This document shows, in pieces, positions 260-61,842 of a stretch of 64,000 bases of DNA (position 1 is its first letter; every line of letters starts with the position of its first letter). Below the pieces are notes generated by a model. The model was not told the origin of the DNA. It made no database searches and saw only the letters and a program-made list of their open reading frames with translations. Origin of the DNA: Bryobacterales bacterium (GTDB lineage Bacteria; Acidobacteriota; Terriglobia; Bryobacterales; UBA6623); the NCBI GenBank assembly GCA_965261065.1, contig OZ253444.1, forward strand, positions 6,838,902 to 6,902,901, given 5' to 3'. The translations under genes and the position numbers were made by a program.

Positions 260-305
260 GTGGCGTAAGGCTCCAGCCTTGCCGAGTCTCGATTCTTCGG
301 GACTC
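260..305 (-). repeat. Bipartite hairpin REP-like repeat, family A
   Basis: Minus strand GAGTCCCG-AAGAAT-CGAGACTC-GGCA-AGGCTGGAGCCT-TACGCCAC; same architecture at 348-394, 12631-12676, 12717-12754 and 52153-52198. Confidence 0.75.
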
Positions 306-347
306 AGGATGGCAAACGACCGAGCAGCCCCTACGGGCCGCAGGCCT

Positions 348-394
348 GAGAACCGAGGAATCGGTTCTCGGCAAGCCTGGAGGTGTCACGCCAC
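348..394 (+). repeat. Bipartite hairpin REP-like repeat, family A (inverted partner of 260-305)
   Basis: GAGAACCG-AGGAAT-CGGTTCTC-GGCA-AGCCTGGAGGTG-TCACGCCAC; perfect 8-bp first stem. Confidence 0.75.
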
Positions 395-430
395 GTCGGG
401 CGCGGCCAGGCAGCGAAGGGTACAACCGAC

Positions 431-509
431 ACGAATCACGAATCACAGATCACGAAACACCAATCACGATCTTCTTCCGACACGAATCACCAATCACGGT
501 TCACGATCT
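431..509. repeat. Degenerate heptamer tandem repeat (ACGAATC-type), two blocks
   Basis: acgaatc acgaatc acagatc acgaaac accaatc acgatct, then acgaatc accaatc acggttc acgatct, immediately past the rnpB 3' end. Confidence 0.8.
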
Positions 510-513
510 CTTA

Positions 514-915
514 GGGCCTGCCGGACTATAAGCCGGTTTCTGTACTCCGGCCGAAGCCGGAGCGGCAGCCATTCGACTAGGACCGGCATTACTGCCGGCC
601 TCGAGCAACCTACCCGGGACTCGACCGCCCGAAGACGGCCGTGGACGCGGCGGGTCACCGCTGGTCCCCTATTTGGTCTTGCTCCGCGTGGGGTTTACCC
701 TGCCACCTCGATTGCTCGAGGCGCGGTGCGCTCTTACCGCACCATTTCACCCTTACCCCGTCGGCGAACCGGCGGGGCGGTATCTTTTCTGTGGCACTTT
801 CCGTGAACCGTCCTTTGAGAACGGCCCCCCGGCCGTTAGCCGGCACGCCACCCTGCGGAGACCGGACTTTCCTCCCCGCCCCGAAGAGCGCGGCGACTGC
901 CCGTCCGGCAAGCCC
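514..915 (-). ncRNA. rnpB: RNase P RNA (bacterial type A)
   Basis: Minus strand has GAGGAAAGUCC near the 5' end and ACAGAAACCGGCUUAU near the 3' end; terminal P1 helix GGGCUUGCCGGAC pairs with GUCCGGCAGGCCC; length about 402 nt. Confidence 0.97.
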
Positions 916-921
916 ACGATG

Positions 922-930
922 ATTCTAGCA
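922..930 (-). promoter_or_regulatory. Extended -10 promoter element of rnpB
   Basis: TGcTAGAAT ends 7 nt upstream of the P1-starting G at 915; no clear -35. Confidence 0.65.
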
Positions 931-1167
931 TCGGCGTGTGAGGGGAAGACGAGTGTGATTCCGTGCGCCTCTTCGCCACCGCCGTCATCGACCACGCGGG
1001 CGCCTGGCGGAAACACCACCAATTAGCTCCACGAGCCCCAACGAGCCTTGCGCAGTTGCATGGTCCTCGCTGGTGAGTCGTGGAGTAAGCCTGTTCGCTT
1101 TGAGCAGGTCAGGAGATGGAATGCCGCGAAAGCGTGGTTGCCGGGCGGGCAAGGGAAGCAGGTGAAG

Positions 1168-1443
1168 CTACTCTCGTGTTGAAGCCTTTCTTCCGCGGCG
1201 TTTGTGGAGGAAGCCGAGGAACTCGTCGACGCTGAGGTCAGCCTCTTTGAGTATGCCGAGGAGGGTTCCCCTCTTGAGATCTTGGGTCTTGTAGGAAACG
1301 GTGACCCGGAGGCTGGGTTTCTCAGGGTGTTTGAGAATGTAGTGGCTACCCCGGCCTCGCTTGGCGTGAATGTAGAAGCCCGCGTGTCTTGTCAAAATGC
1401 GGAGAAGGTCGCGAGGTTTGAGACTGGGGAGGCGGGTGCCCAT
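1168..1443 (-). CDS. hicA: HicA family mRNA interferase toxin
   Basis: LPSLKPRDLLRIL...RGRGSHYILKHP...VTV...DLKRGTLLGILKEA with the GSH motif; ATG overlaps the hicB stop (TGATG). Confidence 0.88.
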   Translation of the reverse strand: MGTRLPSLKPRDLLRILTRHAGFYIHAKRGRGSHYILKHPEKPSLRVTVSYKTQDLKRGTLLGILKEADLSVDEFLGFLHKRRGRKASTRE

Positions 1444-1745
1444 CAAGTGTCAAGTGACACCATTATCTCGCGACGGATCTTATTCTTGGATGCCTTTTGG
1501 CTGTTCTTTTTCTCCTCGGGAATCGGCATGTTATCGTCGCGGAGGCTTTCAAGGTAGGCGAGGACCGCGTCCTCGGACATCGCAAGGGCTTCGTCGAGCG
1601 TGTCACCTTGGGTGACTACGCCAGGTAGTGCTGGGCAAGTGACGACGTAGCCGCCTTCATCAGCCGGCTCTAGGAGGACTGTAAACTTGTAGGCAGCTCG
1701 AGTCGCCGCCGGCGCCGGGCTAAGAACCTGGGATCGTGAAGACAT
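1443..1745 (-). CDS. hicB: HicB family antitoxin
   Basis: FTVLLEPADEGGYVVTCPALPGVVTQGDTLDEALAMSEDAV; AGGAGG Shine-Dalgarno at 1752-1757. Confidence 0.9.
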   Translation of the reverse strand: MSSRSQVLSPAPAATRAAYKFTVLLEPADEGGYVVTCPALPGVVTQGDTLDEALAMSEDAVLAYLESLRDDNMPIPEEKKNSQKASKNKIRREIMVSLDT

Positions 1746-1773
1746 GGGTTACCTCCTAGTGTATACATCGCGA

Positions 1774-1863
1774 TGAGCCAGGTCCATCGGCGCGAATTTC
1801 GAGCTAGCCGATCTCGTTAAACAACTCATTCTCGGCGGCCTCGTGGTACCTAATGGGCCTCAC
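1774..1863 (-). pseudogene. ParE/RelE-type toxin N-terminal stub
   Basis: GTG overlaps the antitoxin stop (GTGA) and reads MRPIRYHEAAENELFNEIG*LEIRADGPG, with an in-frame TAG at 1804-1806; similarity ends just before the hicB SD. Confidence 0.6.
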
Positions 1864-2129
1864 TGGAAAAGTTTGGACGCCTTCTTCGCCACCTCATCCG
1901 CTGGAACCGTCTTGGCCCGACCCGCGAGGTATTCCTCCCATCGCCTCTGTGCTTCCTCGGCCCAAAGGCGTTCGGCCTCTTCCTCAGGTAGATCCTCCAG
2001 ACTCGCCAGAAGCGTCTGCGCCAGGGCCGCCCGATCCTGAACGTCCAGGCTGACGACATTCTTGACAACTTCCGCCAAGTCCGGCATCTTCCCCTCCAAG
2101 ATCATTGTATCTGTCCCTGATGACCCCAA
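1860..2129 (-). CDS. Putative addiction module antitoxin (TIGR02574-like)
   Basis: LDVQDRAALAQTLLASLE...EEAERLWAEEAQRRWEEYLAGRAKTVPADEV; start codon uncertain (2129, 2105 or 2087). Confidence 0.8.
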   Translation of the reverse strand: MGSSGTDTMILEGKMPDLAEVVKNVVSLDVQDRAALAQTLLASLEDLPEEEAERLWAEEAQRRWEEYLAGRAKTVPADEVAKKASKLFQ

Positions 2130-2245
2130 CGACTCGGCAACGATCGAGGTCGAGCACGACCTGCCGTTCGGTTTCCTCGGCAGCGGTCGTTAGTCATCCC
2201 AGCCGGCTGGCAGAGATGTGGTTCAGGGGATGATTCAGCCCACGG

Positions 2246-2316
2246 GGACTCTCCTCCCCGCCCCGAAAGGCGCGGCGACTGCCCGTCCGGCAAGCCCTTG
2301 ATGAGTTTAGCATCGG
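2246..2316 (-). repeat. Duplicate of the rnpB promoter plus its first 52 nt (direct repeat of 864-934)
   Basis: 64/71 identical to 864-934; includes TGcTAAACT and the P1/P3 5' strand; GAGGAAAGUCC is changed to GAGGAGAGUCC. Confidence 0.93.
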
Positions 2317-2644
2317 GGGACGATCTTACGGTTTGCCCATCTGCCCTAGCAGGGTAAATCCTTCGCCGCCAGAGGAGATCTAGTGGTCTGTGGGCACACG
2401 GACGCTCCACGGGTGGCCCTGGTACCGCCTGCTTACGCTAGAATGTTGGGCGAAAGCGCGTCACCGTCGGATACCTACCGAGAAACGATTTCCTGTTGAG
2501 CGACCCAGGTGTCAGAGCTTCCTCAACCGGTCGCCGAGCGGACCCAGATCGAGTCCCATCAAAGGGCTACCGAGACTCTGGGCTGAGAGCGAGTGACATC
2601 GGTTGTTCGCACCACCTACCGCCTGGCGGTCGAATCGAAGTGAC

Positions 2645-2719: not shown

Positions 2720-3042
2720 GACATAGCCAGCACCGCTGCAGACTCCAGCTCGAAGAACTGCTGACGCCGGTCAGGGCTGTTCCCCAAACACGGCGACAAA
2801 CTCGTGACTGTCCGCTTCTAGAGCGTCGACTCTTGACATTCTAGACTGGAGACCGGAGGGGGCCTGATGCCTCGGCGAGTTCACGCGGAACGGAACATGA
2901 TTGTCGGCACGCACCGATGCCCCGCTGGATGACGGAGTTTCCCCGGGGAGCCCCAGCGTGGCCGCGAGGAGGAAGAAGAATGCGGTGCCGGCTAGAACGA
3001 AGAGGGTCTCCCTGCAAAGCTGCTTCACCGAGATTCGTGCTA

Positions 3043-4073
3043 GCTGGGTATCCACTTGACTCAGGTGACCCCAAGATGTAGTGTAGGGCCTGGTGGAGGA
3101 TTACCCGCGCGACCAACTCGAATTCGAGTCTCACTTTGCAAGCGAGGAGGCTTGCCGCGACTATCTGTTCGCCTTGCGCTGGCCAGAGGGTTTCCGCTGT
3201 CCAAGGTGTGGGCATGAGCGCGCTTGGCCGGTGCGCAAAGTGTGGTTCGAATGCGCTCGCTGCGGGCGGCAAACCTCCGTCACCGTCGGCACGATCTTTC
3301 AAGACACACGCAAGCCGCTGCGGCTGTGGTTCCGGGCGATGTGGACCATCACCACGCAGAAGAATGGGGCCAGCGCCCTGGGTCTACAGCGCGTTCTGGG
3401 ACTGGGCAGTTACCAAACCGCCTGGCCTTGGATGCACAAGCTGAGGCGAGCGATGGTGCGCCCGGGGCGGGAGCGATTGACGGGCCTCGTCGAGGTCGAT
3501 GAGACCTACTGGGGCGCTGAAGAAGAAGGGGTAATCGGCCGGCAGACCGAGCGTAAAGCGTTGATTGCAGTCGCCGCGGAAGAGAGAGGCACCGGGCTGG
3601 GGCGCATCCGCATGCAGCGCGTTCAGAACGCCTCGGCGGCCAGTTTGATGCCCTTCGTCGAGGAGTCGGTCGAGCCGGGCAGCGTGGTTGTTACCGGCAA
3701 CTGGTCGGGCTACGATCCGCTCAAGAAGAAGGACTACCAGCGTCGTATCATCTCGATTAACAACCGCCGCGAGCAGGCCTCGTAGCTACTGCCGAGGGTG
3801 CACTTGGCGATCTCGCTACTCAAGCGCTGGATGCTGGGCACGCATCAGGGGGCGGTCAGCCACGAGCATCTGGACTACTATCTCGACGAGTTCGTGTTCC
3901 GCTTCAATCGGCGCAGATCACGCAGTCGGGGCAAGCTCTTCTACCGCCTTGTGCAGCAGGCCATGGCGGTGGAGCCGACGCCGTACCGCTCGATCGTCGC
4001 CGATTGGGACGCTAAGACGCTGTGAGCCCAACTACAAGATGTTGGGGTCACCTGAGTCAAGTGGATATCCGGC
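3043..4073 (+). mobile_element. IS1595-family insertion sequence, copy 1
   Basis: Terminal IRs GC(T/C)GG(G/A)TATCCACTTGACTCAGGTGACCCCAA; 8-bp TSD TCGTGCTA at 3035-3042 and 4074-4081. Confidence 0.93.
3093..4025 (+). pseudogene. IS1595 transposase, inactivated
   Basis: Zn-ribbon CPRCG...CARC plus DDE domain; relative to copy 2, TAG at 3783-3785 (CAG) and catalytic VTDNW changed to VTGNW. Confidence 0.92.
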
Positions 4074-5601
4074 TCGTGCTATTCCAATTGTTCTTGACAT
4101 ATTCCGTTCTCCTACTCAGCGCCTGCCAACTCGGGCAGGAAGTTCTCCATGGCCCAAAGACCAAATTCTGCTTTCTCTTGCACAGATAAAGAAATCTGCT
4201 TGCCGTCGGGGCTGACGCTGAGGGCGCTGATGCGACGAGTGTCCAGTTCCTCCTCGGAGAGTTCGCCGGACCAAACCTCACGGATCAGTCCTGTCTCGAC
4301 TGCTTCCCCATCCTCTACGGAAACCCGGATAAGTCTTCCTTTCCCACGCAGGACCATGTAGATATACCGATTGTCGGGCGACCAAGCGTATAGGCCCAAC
4401 CGATGATCCATCCATGGTCCTTTCTCAGCTCGGTAGAGTTCGCGAGTTACGCCGGAGGCGATCGATACGATGTTGAGGCTTGTGTAGTCCGCCCCCCGAC
4501 GTTTAACCGCGAGCATCGTTCCATCGGGCGAGAGTCCGCCTGAGAACATCCTTCTATCCTCTTCAGGCAGCTCGTAGATCTCTTTGTCGCTTCCTATCTT
4601 GAGGTTTCTCTTCACGAAACGAGATGGTTTGCGGAGCTGCACGATGACTTCTTCGCCATTCTTCGTCCAGTCGGTGATCGCGAAAGCCGCTTCTGCGAGT
4701 AATAAGGTCGTCTCTCCAGTCTGGGCGTCCACCCGATAGAGTCCCAACGTGGGTTCAGTACGCGGTCGTCCCATCACAAGGAGCGATCTGCCATCCACGT
4801 GCCACCTGAGGCGTGAGAACTCCGCTAACTGCGGCACTACATCCCGCTCGGCGCCGGTTTCCACAGATCGAATCGAGATTCTCATCCCGGACTGATCGGA
4901 TGGTCCTTGCCAGCTTCGGTACGCAATCTGATTCCCGTCCGGCGACCACGCAGCCCAGTCATTGGAACCGCTGAACTGGTTGGTGAGAAGCCGCGGCTGA
5001 CCATTTACCTTGCCGGTCCGCGGGTCAATAGAAGCGAGGTGGGCGTTCGTCGGTTTGCTCATCAGCGTGTAGTAGAGCGTCCCGCCGTCATCGAAGCCCG
5101 CTGACTTGATCTCGCCTACATGAGGGCGCAGTAACTCCGGCTTCCCCTGTGGCTTGCCATCTTCAACCGCGATGGACCAGATGCCAAAGCTGCCCGATCG
5201 GTTGCTCGCAAAAAGCAGCGTCTCTCCGTTGGGAGTCCAGCCGAGGGCATAGTCGTCAGCAGGATGCGGAGAAACGGGAATGGGTTCGCGACTCTTGACC
5301 GGGAGAATGAACACGTCTCCGTCGGCCACTTCTTGATTTGGCGGGAAATCGTAAGCCACGTATTGTTTGTCGTGAGACAGAAAGGTCCGGCGGCGATAAC
5401 GCCTGGTCGATTCCAGTTCTCTCAGAGTTACCAGCGAACCATCGTCCACCGCCACAAGCACGAGGGCATAATGGCCGCGGCTGGCGGGGCCGGCGGTTTC
5501 GCCGGGCAAGTGAATTCTCGCAAGGATGTGCTTGCCGTCTGACGACCACGCATCCGGGATGACCCACCCGGCGCCGTCGCGGTACGGAGACTTGCTGTAA
5601 A

Positions 5602-7266
5602 CCCGCATTTTCAATTTGATGTTTGACATCCCTACCTTCCAGCGGCCTTGAGCGTCTTTATTCATAGGGGCTAGAGCCCGATGAGGACGCCATGGAGGCC
5701 AACACCCAATGGGTGAAAAACAAACCAAGCCATTCCAGCTAAGTTTCAATGGACTTATCAAAGTCGATTTCCAGGGATCGCACGTCACTTCCGACGGTGG
5801 CCTGATTTTGGTTCGCGAACTGGACGAACGGCTCGGTCTCGGAGAACTGATTGACGAGCATCTCAGCGACTCCCGGCAAGGCACAAACAAGCAGTTCACG
5901 CTCGCTGATCTGTTGCGGCAGTCGGTTTACAGCCGACTCGCCGGCTACGAGGACCTCAACGACGCCGAGCGGGTTTCGATCGATCCGACGTTTCGGCTGA
6001 TCGGTTAGCAGAAGATCTGGGATCGCGGTGCGGCCTTGACCTCGACGCTGCACGGCTTCGAGACGGAGATGCTGGCGAGCGAAGAGAACCTGCTGGGGCT
6101 GATGGCGCTGAACCGAGAGCTGGTCGGGCAAGCGGAAGCGTTCGACGACGCCGAGCGGGTCGTTCTGGACCTGGACTCCACCGAGAGTCCGGTCCATGGC
6201 CAACAGGAAGGCAGTGCCTACAACGGACACTTCGAGTCGGTCTGCTACCACCCGTTGCTTTTGTTCAACGGTCATGGTGATTGCCTCGCTGCCAAGCTGC
6301 GTCCAGGCAACGTGCACAGCGCCGAGGACTGGGATGAGCTCTTGTTGCCGGAGATCGAGCGCCAACAGGCTGCGGGCAAGCAGGTCGCCTTCCGGGGCGA
6401 TGCGGCCTTTGCGAAGCCGGAAGTTTATGAGGCTTCGGAGGAACGCGGAGTACAGTACGCCATTCGCATTCCGGCCAACAAGAGCTTGGAGCTGGAGATC
6501 GAAGACATCCTGTTTCGCCCGCCGGGAAGGCCTTCCCGCAAGCCCTTGGTGCGCTACAAGAGTTTTCGCTATCAGGCGGAGAGTTGGTCGCAGGCGAGGC
6601 GGATCGTCGCTAAGGTCGAGCATCACCAGGGCGAGCTGTTCCCGCGCGTCGGATTCATCGTGACGAGCATGAGCTTGCCGAGCCGCTCGGTGGTGCGCTT
6701 CTACAACAAGCGCGGCACGGCGGAACAGTGGATCAAGGAAGGCAAGCAGGCGACGCACTGGACGCGATTGTCGTGCCATCGATTTCGGGCCAACGAAGTG
6801 CGGTTGCAACTGAGCGTGCTGGCCTACAACCTGGGCAATCTTTGGCGGCGGCTGGGGCTTCCGCAGCGAATCAAGAGTTGGTCGCTGACGAGCTTGCAAC
6901 ACAGGTTGATGAAGACCGGCGGTCGGCTGGTCAAGCACGCGCGGTATTACTGGCTCTTATTGGCGGAGGGACATCTGAACCGGCGGCTGTTCGGCGACAT
7001 GCTGCACAAGATCTGGGCGCTGCCGCTGCCGAGTGGGTAGCATTGCCGGAGTGAGGATCAACAGCTTTTGGCTCCAAAAGGTTTCGCAAGGAGCAGTGTC
7101 GGCCGGAGCGCCGTTCAAGCCGCTCAATCACGACTGTGAGCGGTCGAACCAGCTCTGGCGACTACCAGCAGAGGTGATGTGCAGGGTTCAGCGTGAAAGG
7201 ACGTGCTGTTCGGAGCGGAGCGGGTGTATACTGTGGCCGTGCCAGGGCCAAAATGGAAATCCTGGG
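5602..7266 (+). mobile_element. IS1380-family insertion sequence
   Basis: Imperfect IRs CCCGCATTTTCAATTTG and CCCAGGATTTCCATTTTG; 4-bp TSD TAAA at 5598-5601 and 7267-7270. Confidence 0.9.
5709..7040 (+). pseudogene. IS1380 transposase with a nonsense mutation
   Basis: VTSDGGL, AGYEDLNDA, LDLDST, FRGDAAF and YNKRGTAEQWIKEGK motifs; in-frame TAG at 6006-6008 splits the 5709 and 6036 ORFs, which share a frame. Confidence 0.9.
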
Positions 7267-7474
7267 TAAAGGGTTCGTTGACCGGTGCCGTCCGAGTTGA
7301 TAACTCGCAGCTCCACGGTAGCGTTGGGTAAGCGAGCCGCCGTGTAATAGGTAAAAGCGATGTGTTTGCCGTCGGGTGAGATAACATTCAGATCCGTGAA
7401 TCCCGACTTCGTCCAGGCATCGTCATCGTTCCAGTCGCCGTACTGCGTCAGAACCTTCTTCTCCCCCGTACTTA

Positions 7475-8568
7475 TTGAGTCCCGCATAATATCCCGTCAC
7501 TCGAAGCAAAGAGAAGACTGTTTCCAGAAGGCCGTGATCAAACGCGGTTTGCGGTGCATGCGGCGGAGTGCCTTGCGGACCCGCTCGTTCAGCTCGCCGT
7601 AGTCCTTCGGACAGACGTTCGGCAACTCGTGCTGCTTCCAGTAAGCCCAGATGTATTCCACCGGATTCAACTCCGGCGCATAGGGTGGCAAGTACTCGGT
7701 TGCGATGTGGCCTTCGGAGAGTTGGATGAACTCTTGCACCAGGCGGCTACGGTGCGCAGGCAGCCGGTCCCAGACGATCAGCAGCGGCCGATCGATATGA
7801 CGTACCAACGCCTTGAGAAAGTCGATCACTTGCTCTTTGCCGATCGCACCGGGATAGAGCCGAAAGTAGAAGTTACGCAGCGTCAGCCCCGCCGAGATGG
7901 AAAGCTTCTCCCAATTGAAGTTAAACTGCAGCACCGGTGTTTGGCCGCGTGGCGCCCAGGTGCGGCAGCGATGCGGCTTCTGACTCAATCCGCTTTCGTC
8001 GATGAAGACGAGCGTACGGCCTTCGTTGTGGGCTTTTTTTTAATGCGCGTCCAGGTCTTGCGCTTCCAGGTGCGGATCTGCTCTTCGTTGCGCTCGCGCG
8101 CCTTTCCGACCGGGCGTTGCGGGCTCCAGTCGAGCGCTCGCAGGATCTTCCAGACGTGGCCTTCGTGGTAGTCGACCCCGAACTCGTCTCCGATCAGCCG
8201 AGCCACCCGCGGACAGCTCCACAGGGGCGTGGGGAAGCCGTGGGCTTGCGGGCCTTCCAGCAACAGCGACGTCAGGCGTTCGCGTTGTGCGGCATCGAGG
8301 AGCGGCTTGCGTCCGGCGCACCCGGCCTGGCGGAGTCCGGCCGCACCCTGCTCGCGGTATTGCCGCCGCCACGCACTGACGGTTTGGCGAGCGACTTTCA
8401 GCCGTCTTGCCGTCTCGGACTGATTGTGGCCTTGGTCGAGCAGCCGCATCGCTTCGAAACGGCGCTTCTCCAGGGCCTTGAAATCCCGCTTCACACCTTT
8501 GGGGTTGCCCATACATATATAGATGCTCCAAACTATCAAAAAGTGTCATAATAATTTGCGGGATTCAA
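7475..8568 (-). mobile_element. IS630-family insertion sequence
   Basis: IRs TTGA(G/A)TCCCGCA; TA duplication at 7473-7474 and 8569-8570. Confidence 0.92.
7497..8512 (-). CDS. IS630 transposase, two ORFs joined by a -1 frameshift
   Basis: HTH ORF ends RIKKK at an A8G tract (8033-8041); the -1 frame continues KAHNEGRTLVFIDESG...VWDRLPAH...PPYAPELNPVE. Confidence 0.88.
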
Positions 8569-9176
8569 TAGGTCGCAGATACCGGCGTTGCCGGTATCCC
8601 AATCGCTACAGGAGAGGTAACGTCCATCAGCGCTGATCGTACCTAGAACATCGGCATCGTAGTCATCCATGACAAGCCGCACTGCCATGCCCGTCCTGTC
8701 AGCCGCCTCCGCAACCGGATCGGACGGGTTCAAGATCGGCCCCCGCATCACAGCGAAGGCCACCATGAGTCCGGTCGCGGCGATTGCTAATCCAGGACTG
8801 AGGCGCTTCCAGAGGGGCGCCGCCGTGTCGATATCAGTTCGGGGCTTGCGCACCGCCCGCCAGGCCTCCAGCTCGCTGGGGTAGGCGTAGACGCTAGAGT
8901 GTCCGGCTGTCCTATGCCGGCGGACCGGTAAGTCTTCCAGCCGCTCCCAGCGACGGGCCGTGCTCTCATCCCGACCGAGGTAGGCGGCGATCTCTTTCCA
9001 GGACTGCAGCGGCTTCTCGGAAGCTCGGTTGTCGTCTCGGCCGGGTTTGTTGGTGTGTTCGTTCATTTCGTGGCTCCTGGGTTGCTGGATACGCCCAGGG
9101 TACTTCTGATCCGAGCGGCACGCAATAGGCATAGCCGGTCAAGGACCGTTTGCCCGCTTATGCACGTTCTCGGGGT

Positions 9177-10207
9177 GCCTGGTATCCACTTGACTCAGGT
9201 GACCCCAACATCTTGTAGTTGGGCTCACAGCGTCTTAGCGTCCCAATCGGCGCCGATCGAGCGGTACGGCGTCGGCTCCACCGCCATGGCCTGCTGCACA
9301 AGGCGGTAGAAGAGCTTGCCCCGACTGCGTGATCTGCGCCGATTGAAGCGGAACACGAACTCGTCGAGATAGTAGTCCAGATGCTCGTGGCTGACCGCCC
9401 CCTGATGCGTGCCCAGCATCCAGCGCTTGAGTAGCGAGATCGCCAAGTGCACCCTCGGCAGTAGCTGCGAGGCCTGCTCGCGGCGGTTGTTAATCGAGAT
9501 GATACGACGCTGGTAGTCCTTCTTCTTGAGCGGATCGTAGCCCGACCAGTTGTCGGTAACAACCACGCTGCCCGGCTCGACCGACTCCTCGACGAAGGGC
9601 ATCAAACTGGCCGCCGAGGCGTTCTGAACGCGCTGCATGCGGATGCGCCCCAGCCCGGTGCCTCTCTCTTCCGCGGCGACTGCAATCAACGCTTTACGCT
9701 CGGTCTGCCGGCCGATTACCCCTTCTTCTTCAGCGCCCCAGTAGGTCTCATCGACCTCGACGAGGCCCGTCAATCGCTCCCGCCCCGGGCGCACCATCGC
9801 TCGCCTCAGCTTGTGCATCCAAGGCCAGGCGGTTTGGTAACTGCCCAGTCCCAGAACGCGCTGTAGACCCATGGCGCTGGCCCCATTCTTCTGCGTGGTG
9901 ATGGTCCACATCGCCCGGAACCACAGCCGCAGCGGCTTGCGTGTGTCTTGAAAGATCGTGCCGGCGGTGACGGAGGTTTGCCGCCCGCAGCGAGCGCATT
10001 CGAACCACACTTTGCGCACCGGCCAAGCGCGCTCATGCCCACACCTTGGACAGCGGAAACCCTCTGGCCAGCGCAAGGCGAACAGATAGTCGCGGCAAGC
10101 CTCCTCGCTCGCAAAGCGAGACTCGAATTCGAGTTGGTCGCGCGGGTAATCCTCCACCAGGCCCTACACTACATCTTGGGGTCACCTGAGTCAAGTGGAT
10201 ACCCAGC
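9177..10207 (-). mobile_element. IS1595-family insertion sequence, copy 2
   Basis: Same 1031-bp element as copy 1, inverted; 8-bp TSD CTCGGGGT at 9169-9176 and 10208-10215. Confidence 0.93.
9225..10157 (-). CDS. IS1595 transposase, apparently intact
   Basis: 310 aa; VEVDETYWG, VTDNW and YLDEFVFRFNRR motifs all intact. Confidence 0.92.
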   Translation of the reverse strand: MEDYPRDQLEFESRFASEEACRDYLFALRWPEGFRCPRCGHERAWPVRKVWFECARCGRQTSVTAGTIFQDTRKPLRLWFRAMWTITTQKNGASAMGLQRVLGLGSYQTAWPWMHKLRRAMVRPGRERLTGLVEVDETYWGAEEEGVIGRQTERKALIAVAAEERGTGLGRIRMQRVQNASAASLMPFVEESVEPGSVVVTDNWSGYDPLKKKDYQRRIISINNRREQASQLLPRVHLAISLLKRWMLGTHQGAVSHEHLDYYLDEFVFRFNRRRSRSRGKLFYRLVQQAMAVEPTPYRSIGADWDAKTL

Positions 10208-59053: not shown

Positions 59054-59305
59054 CGGGCGAACCGAGCTTGCTTCCACAACCCAAGTACGCTTCCGCAAAC
59101 CAAACTCAGAGCCGCGGGCCTCAGGGGCCGTGAAAAAATCGGGGAGTCCACGGTTGACACTGCGGGGAGCCTCGCGGCAACTCATCGTGCAAGTTGAGGC
59201 CTCCAACGACACAACCGAGCCGCGGGTGGGAACCCGCGGTTCCCTCTGGGCGCAACCCGGTGCCGCCAACCACGAAGCCAAGCCCCGGTACGGGGCGATG
59301 GAAAG

Positions 59306-61199
59306 ATCGGGTCGGGTGACGGGGATTGCGCCCCGGCACCCTCCCACACCACCGGACATACGGTTTTCCGTATCCGGCGGTTGGACCCAGCGACTTTACC
59401 CGTACGCCGCAAGATCCGATGGCACCACCAACCCGTAGCGCTTCAGAATGGCGTTCGACAGCCCCGTGTGCAACAACACATGATGCGCCATACTCCACGC
59501 TCCACGACGCGTCGCGACTACACGCAGCAGCCCTTCGCCCACCCCCAGCCGCCGTAACGCTCTCTGGCGGCCGCGCTTCTTGTGCCAACGCAGCCAAAAG
59601 CACTTCCGCATGTGTCGCCGGATCCAACCTTCCAGCCGAAAGACATTCCGACGCTGCTGGGCCAGCCGGTACTATCCCCACCAGCCCACCACGTATCGCC
59701 GCCACTCGTCGCGTAACGCCCGACTCGTGACACTGCGACCACTGCGCCAAATCTCTCGCACCTTCTGCTTGAATCGTGCAACACTCTGCGGCGCTACTTC
59801 TCGCTGCCCTTGGCGGTTGATTCGAAACCCCAGAAACTTTCGCTCCCACGGCCTCCCTGCCCCGCTCTTGGCACGGTTCACTCGCAAACGCAGATGCCTC
59901 TCGATCCAGTCCCCGATCCCCGCCAACACTCGCTTCGCCGCCGCCTCGCTGCTCACATAGACGTTGCAGTCGTCGGCATAACGGCAAAAGCGCAGCCCGC
60001 GGTTCTCCAGTTCCCGATCCAGCGCATCCAGATAGAGGTTCGCCAGCAACGGAGACAGCGGCCCGCCTTGTGGCGTGCCCTCCTCGCTTCGAACCACCAC
60101 CCCCGCCGCCATCACCCCGGCCCGCAGATACCGTCCGATCAACCGCAACACCTTCTTGTCCCGAATCACTTCCGCGATCCGTTGCATCAGAATGTCATGG
60201 TTGACGTGGTCGAAGAACTGCGCGATATCGATATCCACCACCCAGTCCTTGCCCTCGCGGACGTATCCTTGCGCCGCTCGTACGGCGTCGTGCGCGCTGC
60301 GCCTCGGACGAAAACCGTAGCTCGACTCGCTGAACCGAGGATCGAAAATCGGTTGCAACACTTGCAGCAATGCTTGCTGTACCACCCGATCCATCACCGT
60401 CGGTATGCCGAGCCGACGCGTCCCCCCGTTCGGCTTCGGGATGTCCACCCGCCTCACCGGGCTCGGCGTCCATCGCCCGGCCACGAGTTTCGCCCGCATC
60501 TTCGCGCCGTGGCGCTGCCAATGAACTTCGAGTTCGTCGACGGTCATCCGATCGATCCCAGCCGCGCCGCAATTGCGTTTGACCGCCGCCCGCGCCCGCG
60601 CCAAGTTCGGCTCGGCGACCACCTGGTCCATCAGATCTTCGTGCATCACTTTCTGTCGAGAGTCTCGCGACACTCGCCCTGGCTTCCACCGACCTCTGCC
60701 CGCAGCGGCTCCACCGCTTCTGCGTCGGCCTGCTCCCCGTTTCGTTCCCCCACCGGGGAAGGACCTTGCGGCCCGGGACTCCGGGAAACCTCTTGGGCAC
60801 TGTATCAGTCGCTCCTCTAGCTTTGCTCCTTGGTCCTTCGGCCCTTGGCTCCAGCGGCGTTACCCGCCTTCTCGGCTACTATGGCCTCTGCTGACTTCTC
60901 CTTCGCTCTCACGCAGGAGCCCTCCCCAGGTAAGGTGCTGTTTCTTTCCCTTCCTACCGTCCGGCTCTACCTCGCACGTCTGGATGGACTTTGGGCTTTA
61001 CTGTGGCTAGCCAGCTCGCCGCCCGTACGCGGCCTCTCTGCCGGTTCGTGTTCCTACGGTCGAAGGTTTGTTTCCCGCTGCCTTCAGCTTGGCTCGCGGC
61101 GTTGGCCACGAGATCCACCTTGCGGTTCCCTACGGTTACCTCCATCGGTTCCGGTGAGTACGTTGCAACTCACAAGTAAACAGCCCATGCTGGGCACAC
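59306..61199 (-). mobile_element. Group II intron, class IIC
   Basis: 5' GTGTGCCCAGCATGGG; short D5 with CGC triad (AACCGCCGGATACGGAAAACCGTATGTCCGGTGGTGTGG); D6 ending ...ACCCGAT; encodes an RT; inserted 3 nt after a hairpin. Confidence 0.95.
59396..60673 (-). pseudogene. ltrA: Group II intron RT/maturase with a premature stop
   Basis: RRLGIPTVMDR, SYGFRP, DIAQFFD, GTPQGGPLSP, RYADD; in-frame TAG at 59672-59674, after which YRLAQ...WIRRHMRKCFWLRW continues; no endonuclease domain. Confidence 0.92.
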
Positions 61200-61239
61200 T
61201 AGCCCACGACGCCAGTCGTGGGAAGAAGCCGCCAAACGG

Positions 61240-61630
61240 CGGGTCCTTCCTCCCGTACCACGGATCAAAGTCCCTCTCGCGCTTCCACAACACATGCAGC
61301 AGGACCGCCAACTTGCGCGCCACCGCCACCACCGCCTTGCGCTTGGCCGCCTTGCCGCCCCGCGCCGCCAACCGCAGTCCTCAACGCCGCAGCTGCGAGT
61401 CGTCGCCGTGGCGTCCCAACACGTATTGCGCACATTGCACCAGCAGCTTCCGCAGCATCGGATCCCCGCTCTTGGTGACGCTCAGCTGCGGGGAGATCGC
61501 CCCCGAGTCACGCTTCTTCGGACGGAGCCCCCTCCGCGGTCCCGCCCCGCGGCTGCTCTTCAACTTCGTGGCGTCGTTGTCCAGGTTCAGCACGCACGCC
61601 AACGACGTGATCGGCCCCACGCCACGGTAG
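61240..61630 (-). pseudogene. IS110-family transposase C-terminal fragment
   Basis: GVGPITS...SG..SPQLSVTKSGDPMLRKLLVQCAQYVLG...DSQLRR*GLRLAARGGKAAKRKAVVAVARKLAVLLH; TGA at 61381-61383; N-terminal DEDD domain absent. Confidence 0.88.
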
Positions 61631-61653
61631 GGGCGGGGCGAAGCCCGCTGCCC
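61627..61653 (+). repeat. GTAG-type REP palindrome at the IS110 truncation point
   Basis: GTAG-GGGCGGGGCGAAGCCCGCTGCCC. Confidence 0.55.
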
Positions 61654-61842
61654 GGGAGCGTACCGCACTCCCGAGACCGCGAGTCTCCTCATTTCATCTC
61701 GGTTTCTTGCGTTGGCACGGATTCGCGCCGAGAACTCCGGTGGTGGCGTGAAACCTGATTAGGATGCCGGCTACCGATCAGCCCAATGGTTTGATCAGGC
61801 CGCGGCTGATTGTCCCCAGCATTTTTTCACAGCCCCTCACGG

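What the first reader, a model, noticed from the sequence alone, without database searches (positions are those of the whole stretch)
864..2316. Toxin-antitoxin cassette bracketed by a duplication of the rnpB promoter and 5' end
Seen: 864-934 and 2246-2316 are 71-bp direct repeats (64/71) covering an extended -10 box and the first 52 nt of RNase P RNA. Between them lie only TA genes (addiction-module antitoxin, parE-like stub, hicB, hicA). The P3 UUCG hairpin can pair in both copies, while the universal GAGGAAAG motif is mutated in the distal copy. Established: integrative elements usually duplicate part of a tRNA/tmRNA gene as att sites, mostly the 3' end. Inference: this is a small island or relic that uses the 5' end of the essential rnpB gene as target and resupplies its promoter and 5' end, possibly stabilised by addiction modules. 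No integrase is in the window.
Basis: partly seen in the sequence, partly recalled or inferred. Interest (0 to 1): 0.82.

Follow-up and report, generated by a model that had tools for sequence, protein, structure and literature searches.

The report
Toxin-antitoxin insert splitting rnpB promoter duplicate
A small toxin-antitoxin cassette sits between a leftover copy of the promoter and first ~50 bases of the essential RNase P RNA gene and the intact gene; comparison with relatives points to an old insertion made by ordinary recombination through shared rnpB sequence, then trimmed by deletions, rather than to a dedicated integrase-driven island.

Summary
A full class-A rnpB lies at 513-912 (-). 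A 71-bp direct repeat (864-934 / 2246-2316, 64/71) covers the extended -10 box and the first 49-52 nt of the RNA. It brackets only Unstab_antitox, a 19-codon RelE/ParE stub, hicB and hicA.

Relatives (Bryobacterales MAGs and metagenome contigs) show empty sites. They also show that the distal copy keeps the native upstream flank, so the insert did bring a replacement core promoter and 5' end.

The repeat does not behave as a fixed att site:
- The same cassette is joined to rnpB at +49 here, at +83 in a sister lineage that lacks the antitoxin and stub, and at +161 in other genomes, where it sits away from any full rnpB.
- The two junctions read in detail show only short microhomologies.
- No integrase appears in any of the roughly 20 loci whose gene tables or ORFs were examined.
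- All contigs of this species carry the insert.
- Another relative has two full rnpB copies around unrelated cargo. Their mosaic pattern is what a single homologous (Campbell-type) crossover would give, and a matching empty allele exists.

Best reading: an old homology-driven insertion with duplication, later eroded. An integrase relic is not excluded. Moderate interest.

The parts
513..912 (-). Intact RNase P RNA gene (rnpB, class A). The mature 5' end is probably G915.
   Evidence: Rfam RF00010, 278.6 bits, model 1-367. 96.7-98.3% identical to the rnpB of relatives.
864..934 (-). Proximal repeat copy: core extended -10 promoter (TG 929-930, TAGAAT 922-927) plus rnpB +1..+49. It drives the functional gene. 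Its upstream flank is not the native one.
   Evidence: The -22..+27 part is over-diverged against L010 and L016 copy 1.
935..1167 (-). 233-nt non-coding spacer between hicA and the proximal promoter. It evolves fast: 88.5% identity to L015, against 96% for hicBA and 98% for rnpB.
   Evidence: No Pfam hit in any frame. Found only in window-type and L015-type loci.
1168..1443 (-). hicA toxin gene (91 aa). It overlaps the hicB stop (ATGA).
   Evidence: PF07927, E=7.5e-14. Synonymous:nonsynonymous changes 3:3 and 3:7 against relatives. The start codon is lost (ATT) in L015 and L017.
1443..1745 (-). hicB antitoxin gene (100 aa), under purifying selection.
   Evidence: PF15919, E=2.4e-12. Synonymous:nonsynonymous changes 8:2, 5:1 and 3:1.
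1746..1790 (-). hicB 5' leader. It holds CGATGTATACACT, the only CGATG-NN-TANANT match in the window. Its left edge is the junction point in both the window-type and L015-type arrangements.
   Evidence: 1 match, 0.12 expected.
1804..1863 (-). Stub of a RelE/ParE-family toxin gene (19 codons plus stop). Its GTG start overlaps the antitoxin stop codon.
   Evidence: Translation. The same truncation occurs in L019-L024. N-terminal match to the toxin reading frame of L026. No Pfam hit.
1860..2087 (-). Orphan antitoxin gene (Unstab_antitox, TIGR02574-type, 75 aa).
   Evidence: PF09720, E=3e-13. 93% identical to P0241 and 84% to P0242.
2088..2245 (-). The antitoxin's own upstream region. It is joined to rnpB +49 at 2245/2246.
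   Evidence: Window 1853-2244 is 85.9% identical to L025 3018-3413, an independent Nramp|antitoxin locus.
2246..2316 (-). Distal repeat copy: the native rnpB promoter (TG 2311-2312, TAAACT 2304-2309) plus a dead 49-52-nt 5' fragment (GAGGAGAG). It is co-oriented with the cassette and is positioned to transcribe it.
2317..2340 (-). Native upstream flank of the rnpB promoter (GGGCAAACCGTAAGATCGTCCCC). It is conserved upstream of the rnpB of relatives.
   Evidence: Alignment A1. It is the top nhmmer hit in the 64 kb for a model built from the relatives, though weak (E=0.48), and it lies exactly beside the repeat.

Best explanation
The locus is the eroded product of an old recombinational insertion with duplication. 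It is not an active rnpB-specific island.

Proposed history:
1. In an ancestor of several Bryobacterales species, a DNA molecule (most simply a circle) recombined with the resident rnpB. It carried a stretch of rnpB homology running from about -22/-26 to at least +161, together with a decayed RelE/ParE module and hicBA. The event was a single crossover downstream of +27, a Campbell-type integration through host homologous recombination.
2. This left the native upstream region and promoter with a partial rnpB copy on the upstream side, then the cargo, then a second core promoter and 5' end of foreign origin fused to the native body of rnpB.
3. The redundant upstream copy was later shortened by different microhomology-mediated deletions: to +49 in this species, and to +83 in a sister lineage that also lost the antitoxin and stub. 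It remains at +161 where the cassette sits at another locus.

Present function: rnpB is transcribed from the proximal extended -10 promoter. The displaced native promoter, with its dead leader, faces into the toxin-antitoxin genes. The hicBA pair (hicB is still under purifying selection) may penalise loss of the segment by recombination between the repeats.

Shown: the anatomy, the empty sites, the variable junctions, the mosaicism, and a Campbell-type product at the same gene in a relative. Inferred: a circular donor, RecA dependence, the order of deletions, and stabilisation by addiction.
For: - Empty sites, and native flank only at the distal copy.
- One cassette, three different rnpB junctions: +49, +83 and +161. 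The junctions read in detail show short microhomology: GCCG at the L015 joint, and GTC..GGTC-like at 2245/2246.
- The functional gene is a mosaic. 6-7 differences fall in -22..+49 and 7-8 in the other 351 nt against L010 and L016 copy 1 (p 0.004-0.018). All of these 5' differences lie between -19 and +27. No such skew is seen among single-copy relatives.
- A direct precedent at the same locus. L016, L149 and L150 carry two full rnpB copies around 2.15 kb of unrelated cargo. Copy 1 has a native upstream (40/40 identical to the empty allele L154) but a foreign downstream (88.5%, lacking the hairpin element). Copy 2 has a foreign, promoterless 5' end starting at +9 and a native downstream (96.6%).
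- In L019-L024 the end of the cassette is joined head-to-tail to an internal piece of the OPT gene. OPT lies upstream of rnpB in the window-type, L015-type and L152/L153 loci. This permuted joint is the signature of circularisation or tandem duplication.
- No recombinase appears in any of the gene tables returned or in the spacer.
- The insert is old and fixed: the spacer is 88.5% identical between species, and all species contigs carry it.
Against: - No circular or plasmid donor was found. The cassette is absent from PLSDB and INPHARED, and the rnpB 5' 20-mer and 18-mer are absent as rnpB from IMG/VR.
- The left edge of the rnpB-homologous segment falls within 4 nt (-22 and -26) in two contexts. 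That could point to a specific site.
- The mosaic test rests on few substitutions, and the promoter may simply have adapted.
- The origin of the 233-nt spacer is unknown.
- The order of events among the three arrangements cannot be fully resolved. For example, the -10 variant TAAACT is shared by the window's distal copy and the L019-24 fragment.
- An ancient integrase could have been deleted without trace.
Confidence: 0.55

Rival explanations
1. Relic of a site-specific integrative element (tyrosine or serine integrase) whose attP carried the rnpB promoter and 5' end. It integrated into the 5' part of rnpB and restored the gene. The integrase and most of the cargo were later deleted, and the attL-side fragment was trimmed differently in each lineage.
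For: Direct repeats bracket the insert and the gene is restored from a non-native promoter block. Empty sites exist in relatives. The promoter-side edge of the rnpB homology is nearly the same (-22 and -26) in two contexts. Elements that target the 5' end of a gene and resupply it are known, for example the dusA-specific integrases (PMC4482086, listed).
Against: No integrase or fragment of one in about 20 loci or in the spacer. Junction positions vary (+49, +83, +161). The required identity block of at least 183 bp is unusually long. The cassette plus fragment at a non-rnpB locus is not an att x att product. The insert does not vary among strains of the species. No paper in the searched library reports rnpB as an integration target. 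Extra rnpB pieces are nearly absent from 5,426 E. coli genomes.
Confidence: 0.22
2. A purely local origin. A spontaneous tandem duplication spanning the rnpB promoter region was followed by insertion of toxin-antitoxin DNA and by deletions. The two promoter copies then diverged in place, and the proximal one drifted or adapted to TAGAAT.
For: Tandem duplications are common. A full rnpB duplication exists in L016-type genomes. The permuted cassette|OPT joint fits tandem duplication as well as a circle. Neither repeat copy is clearly closer to the relatives over the 71 bp.
Against: No second copy of the cargo or of the spacer is found anywhere in the loci. In L016, the downstream of copy 1 is 88.5% identical to the empty allele while that of copy 2 is 96.6%, so one arm is foreign and not a fresh local copy. 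The skew of substitutions into the proximal 5' block needs special pleading.
Confidence: 0.13
3. Assembly artefact: a chimeric or collapsed repeat in a metagenome assembly.
For: The window comes from an uncultured organism that is rich in IS elements.
Against: The same arrangement, 99.3-99.8% identical, occurs in seven independent contigs from six samples. Variant arrangements recur independently in L015/L017 and in L019-L024.
Confidence: 0.01

Closest known systems
Genomic islands in tRNA or tmRNA genes, and the dusA 5'-end islands (integrase-mediated, with target restoration)
   Same: The insert is bracketed by a displaced fragment of a stable-RNA gene and the restored gene. The insert supplies the missing gene end (here the 5' end plus a promoter, as the dusA islands do). 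Relatives have empty sites. Toxin-antitoxin genes are the cargo.
   Different: There is no integrase and no constant crossover position. The shared block was originally at least 183 bp. The insert is fixed and old rather than sporadic. The target is rnpB, for which no report was found in the searched literature.
Campbell-type integration of a circular DNA through host homologous recombination (as with suicide plasmids or integrated episomes)
   Same: The cargo is flanked by a direct duplication of a chromosomal segment of arbitrary length. The copies are mosaic (native/foreign and foreign/native). A clear example lies at the same locus in L016-type genomes, with its empty allele L154.
   Different: The donor circle was not observed. 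In the window the upstream copy has since been cut down to 71 bp, so the original extent is inferred from other lineages.
hicAB and RelE/ParE-type type II toxin-antitoxin modules
   Same: HicA and HicB domains lie in the antitoxin-toxin order with a 4-nt overlap. An Unstab_antitox gene is followed by the start of a RelE/ParE toxin gene.
   Different: The RelE/ParE toxin is reduced to 19 codons, leaving an orphan antitoxin. HicA shows relaxed constraint and has lost its start codon in the sister lineage. Activity is untested.
Homology-facilitated illegitimate recombination (one homologous anchor plus one microhomology joint)
   Same: Short GC-rich microhomologies mark the rnpB|cargo joints. Foreign DNA enters next to a conserved anchor gene.
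   Different: A simple anchor-plus-joint replacement does not yield the L016 duplication or the foreign 5' block of the functional gene. It could explain the later trimming events.

Membership tests
Integrase-mediated site-specific island in a stable-RNA gene | A tyrosine or serine recombinase gene within or at the edge of the element | tested here: not met
   Pfam on the ORFs of the insert. No integrase or resolvase family appears in the gene tables returned; only IS transposases do. All frames of the spacer are negative.
Integrase-mediated site-specific island in a stable-RNA gene | Direct repeats made of a displaced target fragment and the restored target | tested here: met
   71-bp repeat, 64/71. 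The distal copy carries the native flank.
Integrase-mediated site-specific island in a stable-RNA gene | The same junction or crossover position wherever the element occurs | tested here: not met
   The rnpB|cargo joint lies at +49 (window), +83 (L015, L017) and +161 (L019-L024).
Integrase-mediated site-specific island in a stable-RNA gene | Empty target site in relatives, and sporadic presence among strains | tested here: inconclusive
   Empty sites exist in other species (L010, L011, L152, L153, L154). All seven contigs of this species carry the insert.
Campbell-type (homologous) integration product | Cargo flanked by a direct duplication of chromosomal sequence, of a length that differs between events | tested here: met
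   At least 183 bp inferred for the toxin-antitoxin event. About 790 bp for the L016 event.
Campbell-type (homologous) integration product | Reciprocal mosaic: the upstream copy native at its 5' side and foreign at its 3' side, the downstream copy the reverse | tested here: met
   Clear in L150/L016 against the empty allele L154 (100% and 88.5% against 44% and 96.6%). In the window it is supported only for the proximal 5' block.
Campbell-type (homologous) integration product | A circular donor molecule carrying the homology | not testable with these tools
   No donor was found in plasmid, phage or IMG/VR searches. A permuted cassette|OPT joint is indirect evidence.
HicAB type II toxin-antitoxin system | Adjacent HicB (PF15919) and HicA (PF07927) genes in one operon | tested here: met
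   ATGA overlap at 1443.
HicAB type II toxin-antitoxin system | Toxic RNase activity neutralised by HicB | not testable with these tools
   Only selection patterns are available: hicB is constrained and hicA is relaxed.
RelE/ParE with Unstab_antitox module | An intact toxin gene downstream of the antitoxin | tested here: not met
   A 19-codon stub ending at a TAG. The same truncation point is present in L019-L024.
Bacterial RNase P RNA class A | Full covariance-model match above the gathering score | tested here: met
   278.6 bits against a threshold of 100 for 513-912. The distal fragment gives no Rfam match of its own.

The most novel reading that the evidence does not exclude
The toxin-antitoxin cassette travels as a unit with a portable 'handle': the rnpB core promoter plus the first ~160 nt of the gene. 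Because rnpB is essential and nearly identical among related species, the handle lets the unit insert beside rnpB by host homologous recombination, without any integrase. It rebuilds the gene with its own promoter and takes over the native promoter for the toxin-antitoxin genes, and addiction penalises the reverse recombination. This would be an integrase-free, homology-guided mobile cassette that targets an essential ribozyme gene.
Probability: 0.25. Interest if true: 0.7.

Novelty: new variant of a known kind. Interest (0 to 1): 0.42.

Why it matters
Stable-RNA genes are the classic landing sites for integrase-driven islands. Here the bracketed-fragment anatomy that is normally read as an att-site signature seems instead to have arisen through homologous recombination and later deletions. 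This is a caution for island-mapping methods that infer integrases and att sites from split target genes.

The locus also shows that an essential ribozyme gene can have its promoter and 5' end replaced by incoming DNA and keep working. The rnpB locus appears to be a recurrent recombination entry point in one acidobacterial genus, with empty, singly occupied and doubly duplicated alleles all available for comparison. If the 'homology handle' reading holds, it would describe a simple way for toxin-antitoxin cassettes to spread without their own recombinase.

Tried and rejected
- Metagenome scan with the rnpB 5' 20-mer: one chance hit in ilvC and one contig-end fragment, so uninformative.
- Viral scans with the 20-mer and an 18-mer: nothing, or a chance coding hit.
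- HicB in IMG/VR: only a 46% relative.
- Further rnpB or promoter pieces inside the insert. Local alignments did not exceed shuffles.
- An apparent permuted promoter motif at 2225-2240 turned out to be native antitoxin upstream sequence, also present in L025.
- A U-flank-like stretch at 2143-2192 scored 2/300 in shuffles but was not found by nhmmer. I dropped it.
- The idea that the end of the stub (CGGCTAG) derives from rnpB. It was rejected because L021 reads through it as ParE-like coding sequence.
- The idea that the spacer is homologous to the flanks of the L019-24 locus (circular permutation). There was no signal.
- The idea that the antitoxin module originally lay next to Nramp, downstream of rnpB in this genus (tandem duplication model). 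The 64-aa gene there is unrelated.
- IMG/VR scan with the universal CR-I motif. Many 'viral' contigs hold rnpB. The one examined (L040) is host flank beside a prophage whose integrase abuts coaD. No bracketed rnpB fragments were seen in the held windows. The 18-nt matches in L029 and L116 are tRNA T-arms.
- The promoter and terminator consensus scan found nothing useful.
Full report
**1. The observation**

The window holds one full-length class-A RNase P RNA gene on the minus strand at 513-912 (Rfam RF00010, 278.6 bits, whole model). The repeat finder returns a two-copy direct repeat of 71 nt, 864-934 and 2246-2316, at 64/71 identity. Its 27-nt core occurs nowhere else in the 64 kb, and none is expected by chance.

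Read in the sense of the RNA, each copy starts with CCGATGCTA-A-T, an extended -10 box: TGCTAGAAT proximal and TGCTAAACT distal. Each runs through P1, P2 and P3 to GAGGA(A/G)AGTCC. By the Rfam start the repeat holds 49 nt of the gene.

Between the copies, all on the minus strand, lie:
- an Unstab_antitox gene (1860-2087);
- a 19-codon stub (1804-1863);
- hicB (1443-1745);
- hicA (1168-1443);
- a 233-nt non-coding spacer (935-1167).

The stub has no Pfam hit. It matches the N-terminus of a frameshifted RelE/ParE-type toxin gene that follows a homologous antitoxin in L026.

**2. Which copy is the original**

A scan of one genome per species with the rnpB 5' 20-mer found single rnpB genes in two Bryobacterales MAGs (L010, L011) and one other Acidobacteriota MAG (L009). 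This places the window in Bryobacterales.

In L010 and L011 about 25 nt upstream of the repeat block (GGGCAGRCCSTGARATCGACCCC) align with the window's distal flank 2317-2340. They do not align with the proximal flank. Further relatives reached through the neighbouring sulfatase gene show the same conserved flank directly upstream of an uninterrupted rnpB (L152, L153, L154).

So the distal copy is the native promoter left in place. The relatives are empty sites. The cassette, the spacer and a second core promoter lie between the native promoter and the body of the gene.

**3. The repeat is not a constant att site**

Seven contigs from six samples represent the window's species at 99.3-99.8% identity. 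They differ by IS insertions, but all carry the insert.

A sister lineage (L015, L017; sulfatase 93% identical) has hicB, hicA, the spacer and the same proximal promoter block. Its distal rnpB fragment runs to +83. That fragment is joined, through a GCCG microhomology, directly to the hicB leader, and the antitoxin and stub are absent.

In six further contigs (L019-L024) the complete cassette (window 1160-2122, 96.8% identical) lies between unrelated genes (a 267-aa ORF and cvpA). It is again preceded by an rnpB fragment, here -26..+161.

The window's 2088-2245 is the antitoxin's own upstream region. It is 86% identical to an independent Nramp|antitoxin locus, L025. The joint at 2245/2246 is therefore rnpB +49 fused about 160 nt upstream of the antitoxin start.

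One cassette thus has three different rnpB joints. These look like independent deletions into a longer ancestral upstream copy of at least 161 nt, not one recombinase crossover.

**4. No recombinase, no sign of recent mobility**

No integrase or resolvase family appears in the insert, in the six frames of the spacer, or in any of the gene tables returned for the related loci. Only IS transposases do.

Close HicB relatives exist only in this cluster; the next are at most 67% identical. The cassette is absent from the plasmid and phage collections.

Identity between the window species and L015 is 88.5% for the spacer, 96% for hicBA and 98% for rnpB. The arrangement therefore predates that split.

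hicB is under purifying selection (synonymous:nonsynonymous 8:2, 5:1, 3:1). hicA is relaxed and has lost its start codon in L015 and L017.

**5. Evidence for homologous recombination**

The functional gene of the window and of L015 is a mosaic. Against the closest single-copy relatives, 6-7 differences fall in -22..+49 and 7-8 in the remaining 351 nt (Fisher p 0.004-0.018). All of these 5' differences lie between -19 and +27. Single-copy relatives compared with each other show no such skew. This fits a foreign promoter and 5' block joined to a native gene body by a crossover downstream of +27.

A cleaner case lies at the same gene in L016, L149 and L150, which have two full rnpB copies separated by 2.15 kb of unrelated cargo:
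- Copy 1 has the native upstream, 40/40 identical to the empty allele L154. Its downstream, to sulfatase codon 49, is only 88.5% identical to L154 and lacks a 137-nt hairpin element.
- Copy 2 starts at +9 without a promoter and carries the window-type P3 variant plus decay mutations (GAGGAAAG to GCGGAAAG). Its downstream is 96.6% identical to L154 and has the hairpin.

That is the pattern expected from a single crossover between the chromosome and a circle carrying rnpB(+9)..sulfatase codon 49 plus cargo.

Finally, in L019-L024 the end of the cassette abuts a 48-67-nt internal piece of the OPT gene in the same orientation. In the window-type, L015-type and L152/L153 loci, OPT lies upstream of rnpB. 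This head-to-tail permuted joint is the signature of circularisation or tandem duplication.

**6. Most likely history and present function**

A molecule carrying an rnpB handle (about -22/-26 to at least +161), a decayed RelE/ParE module and hicBA recombined into the resident rnpB. This duplicated the handle. The redundant upstream copy was then trimmed differently in each lineage.

Today rnpB must run from the proximal extended -10 box, which lacks the conserved upstream element. The native promoter, followed by a dead 49-nt leader, points into the toxin-antitoxin genes.

Stabilisation by addiction is plausible but untested. An integrase-mediated origin with later loss of the integrase cannot be excluded. 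The near-coincident promoter-side edges of the handle (-22 and -26) leave room for a specific site. I give it about 0.2.

**7. Comparison with what is known, and novelty**

The anatomy mimics tRNA and tmRNA islands and the dusA 5'-end islands (PMC4482086), but it fails the defining tests of recombinase and constant junction.

I found no paper in the searched library that reports rnpB as an integration target. In 5,426 complete E. coli genomes there are only 7 rnpB-like places beyond one per genome. Many IMG/VR contigs contain rnpB. The one I examined is host flank next to a prophage integrated elsewhere, and no bracketed fragments appeared in the held windows.

I class the finding as a new variant of a known kind: a homology-driven insertion with duplication at an unusual, essential target. 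It is of moderate interest, with a more novel 'homology-handle cassette' reading at about 0.25.

Noticed in passing
window 426-506 (TRF 430-471): An array of 7-nt units (CACGAAT / ATCACGA) lies immediately 3' of rnpB. It is conserved in relatives with varying copy number (for example L016 6264-6350 and L154). Its function is unknown.
   Followed up: partly
window 271-382: A long hairpin element (38-nt arms, 82% complementary) lies between rnpB and the sulfatase gene. Copies at 83-88% identity sit at other loci (L016 2538-2672 and 12426-12531, L001 14119-14206). It is missing downstream of rnpB copy 1 in L016/L150, which suggests a MITE-like mobile repeat.
   Followed up: partly
window 3042-4074 and 9177-10207: Two IS1595-family copies with 41-nt terminal inverted repeats. 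The first has a transposase split into 230-aa and 75-aa ORFs and an 8-bp target duplication. Both are absent from strain contigs L002 and L003, so they are polymorphic within the species.
   Followed up: partly
window 4112-9176: A PD40/Tricorn-like beta-propeller gene (729 aa when intact in L002) is broken here by an IS4-like element (5709-7040) and an IS630-like element (7470-8572). L004 carries only the IS630 copy.
   Followed up: partly
window 59306-61103 (-): A group II intron (Rfam D1-D4 and domain V/VI models). L019 and L021 align across both flanks (window 59124-59305 and 61200-61830) without it, which gives an empty site in a relative.
   Followed up: partly
L016 5864-6263 and 8793-9194 (also L149, L150): Two full-length rnpB genes lie in one genome, 2.5 kb apart. 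The second lacks a promoter and its first 8 nt, and it carries mutations in universal motifs.
   Followed up: yes
window 1168-1443; L015 8758-9033: HicA of the window species has Q where relatives have H in KT(H/Q)DLKRGT. L015 and L017 have ATT in place of the hicA start codon. Both may reflect attenuation of the toxin.
   Followed up: partly
L010 151-1032; L152 3787-4668; L153 2404-3285: A low-GC 293-aa ORF with no Pfam hit on record (L152, L153) sits upstream of rnpB in the empty-site genomes. Together with the different upstream neighbours in other relatives (PD40 genes, an RND pump, IS630), it marks the rnpB upstream region as a variable hotspot.
   Followed up: no
L046 (IMG/VR contig of 463 kb), L036 (372 kb), L105 (268 kb), L029/L116: Very large 'viral' contigs carry RNase P RNA-like genes. 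In L029 and L116 a short RNase P-like sequence follows a tRNA gene within a tRNA cluster. These may be phage-encoded RNase P RNAs.
   Followed up: no
L132 about 2108-2640 (minus-oriented): The last ~55 nt of rnpB are repeated twice within 130 nt downstream of the gene. From memory, this resembles the 3'-flank repeats described for E. coli rnpB.
   Followed up: no
E. coli genome collection: 7 rnpB-like places exist beyond one per genome among 5,426 complete genomes, one of them on a plasmid. I did not examine them.
   Followed up: no
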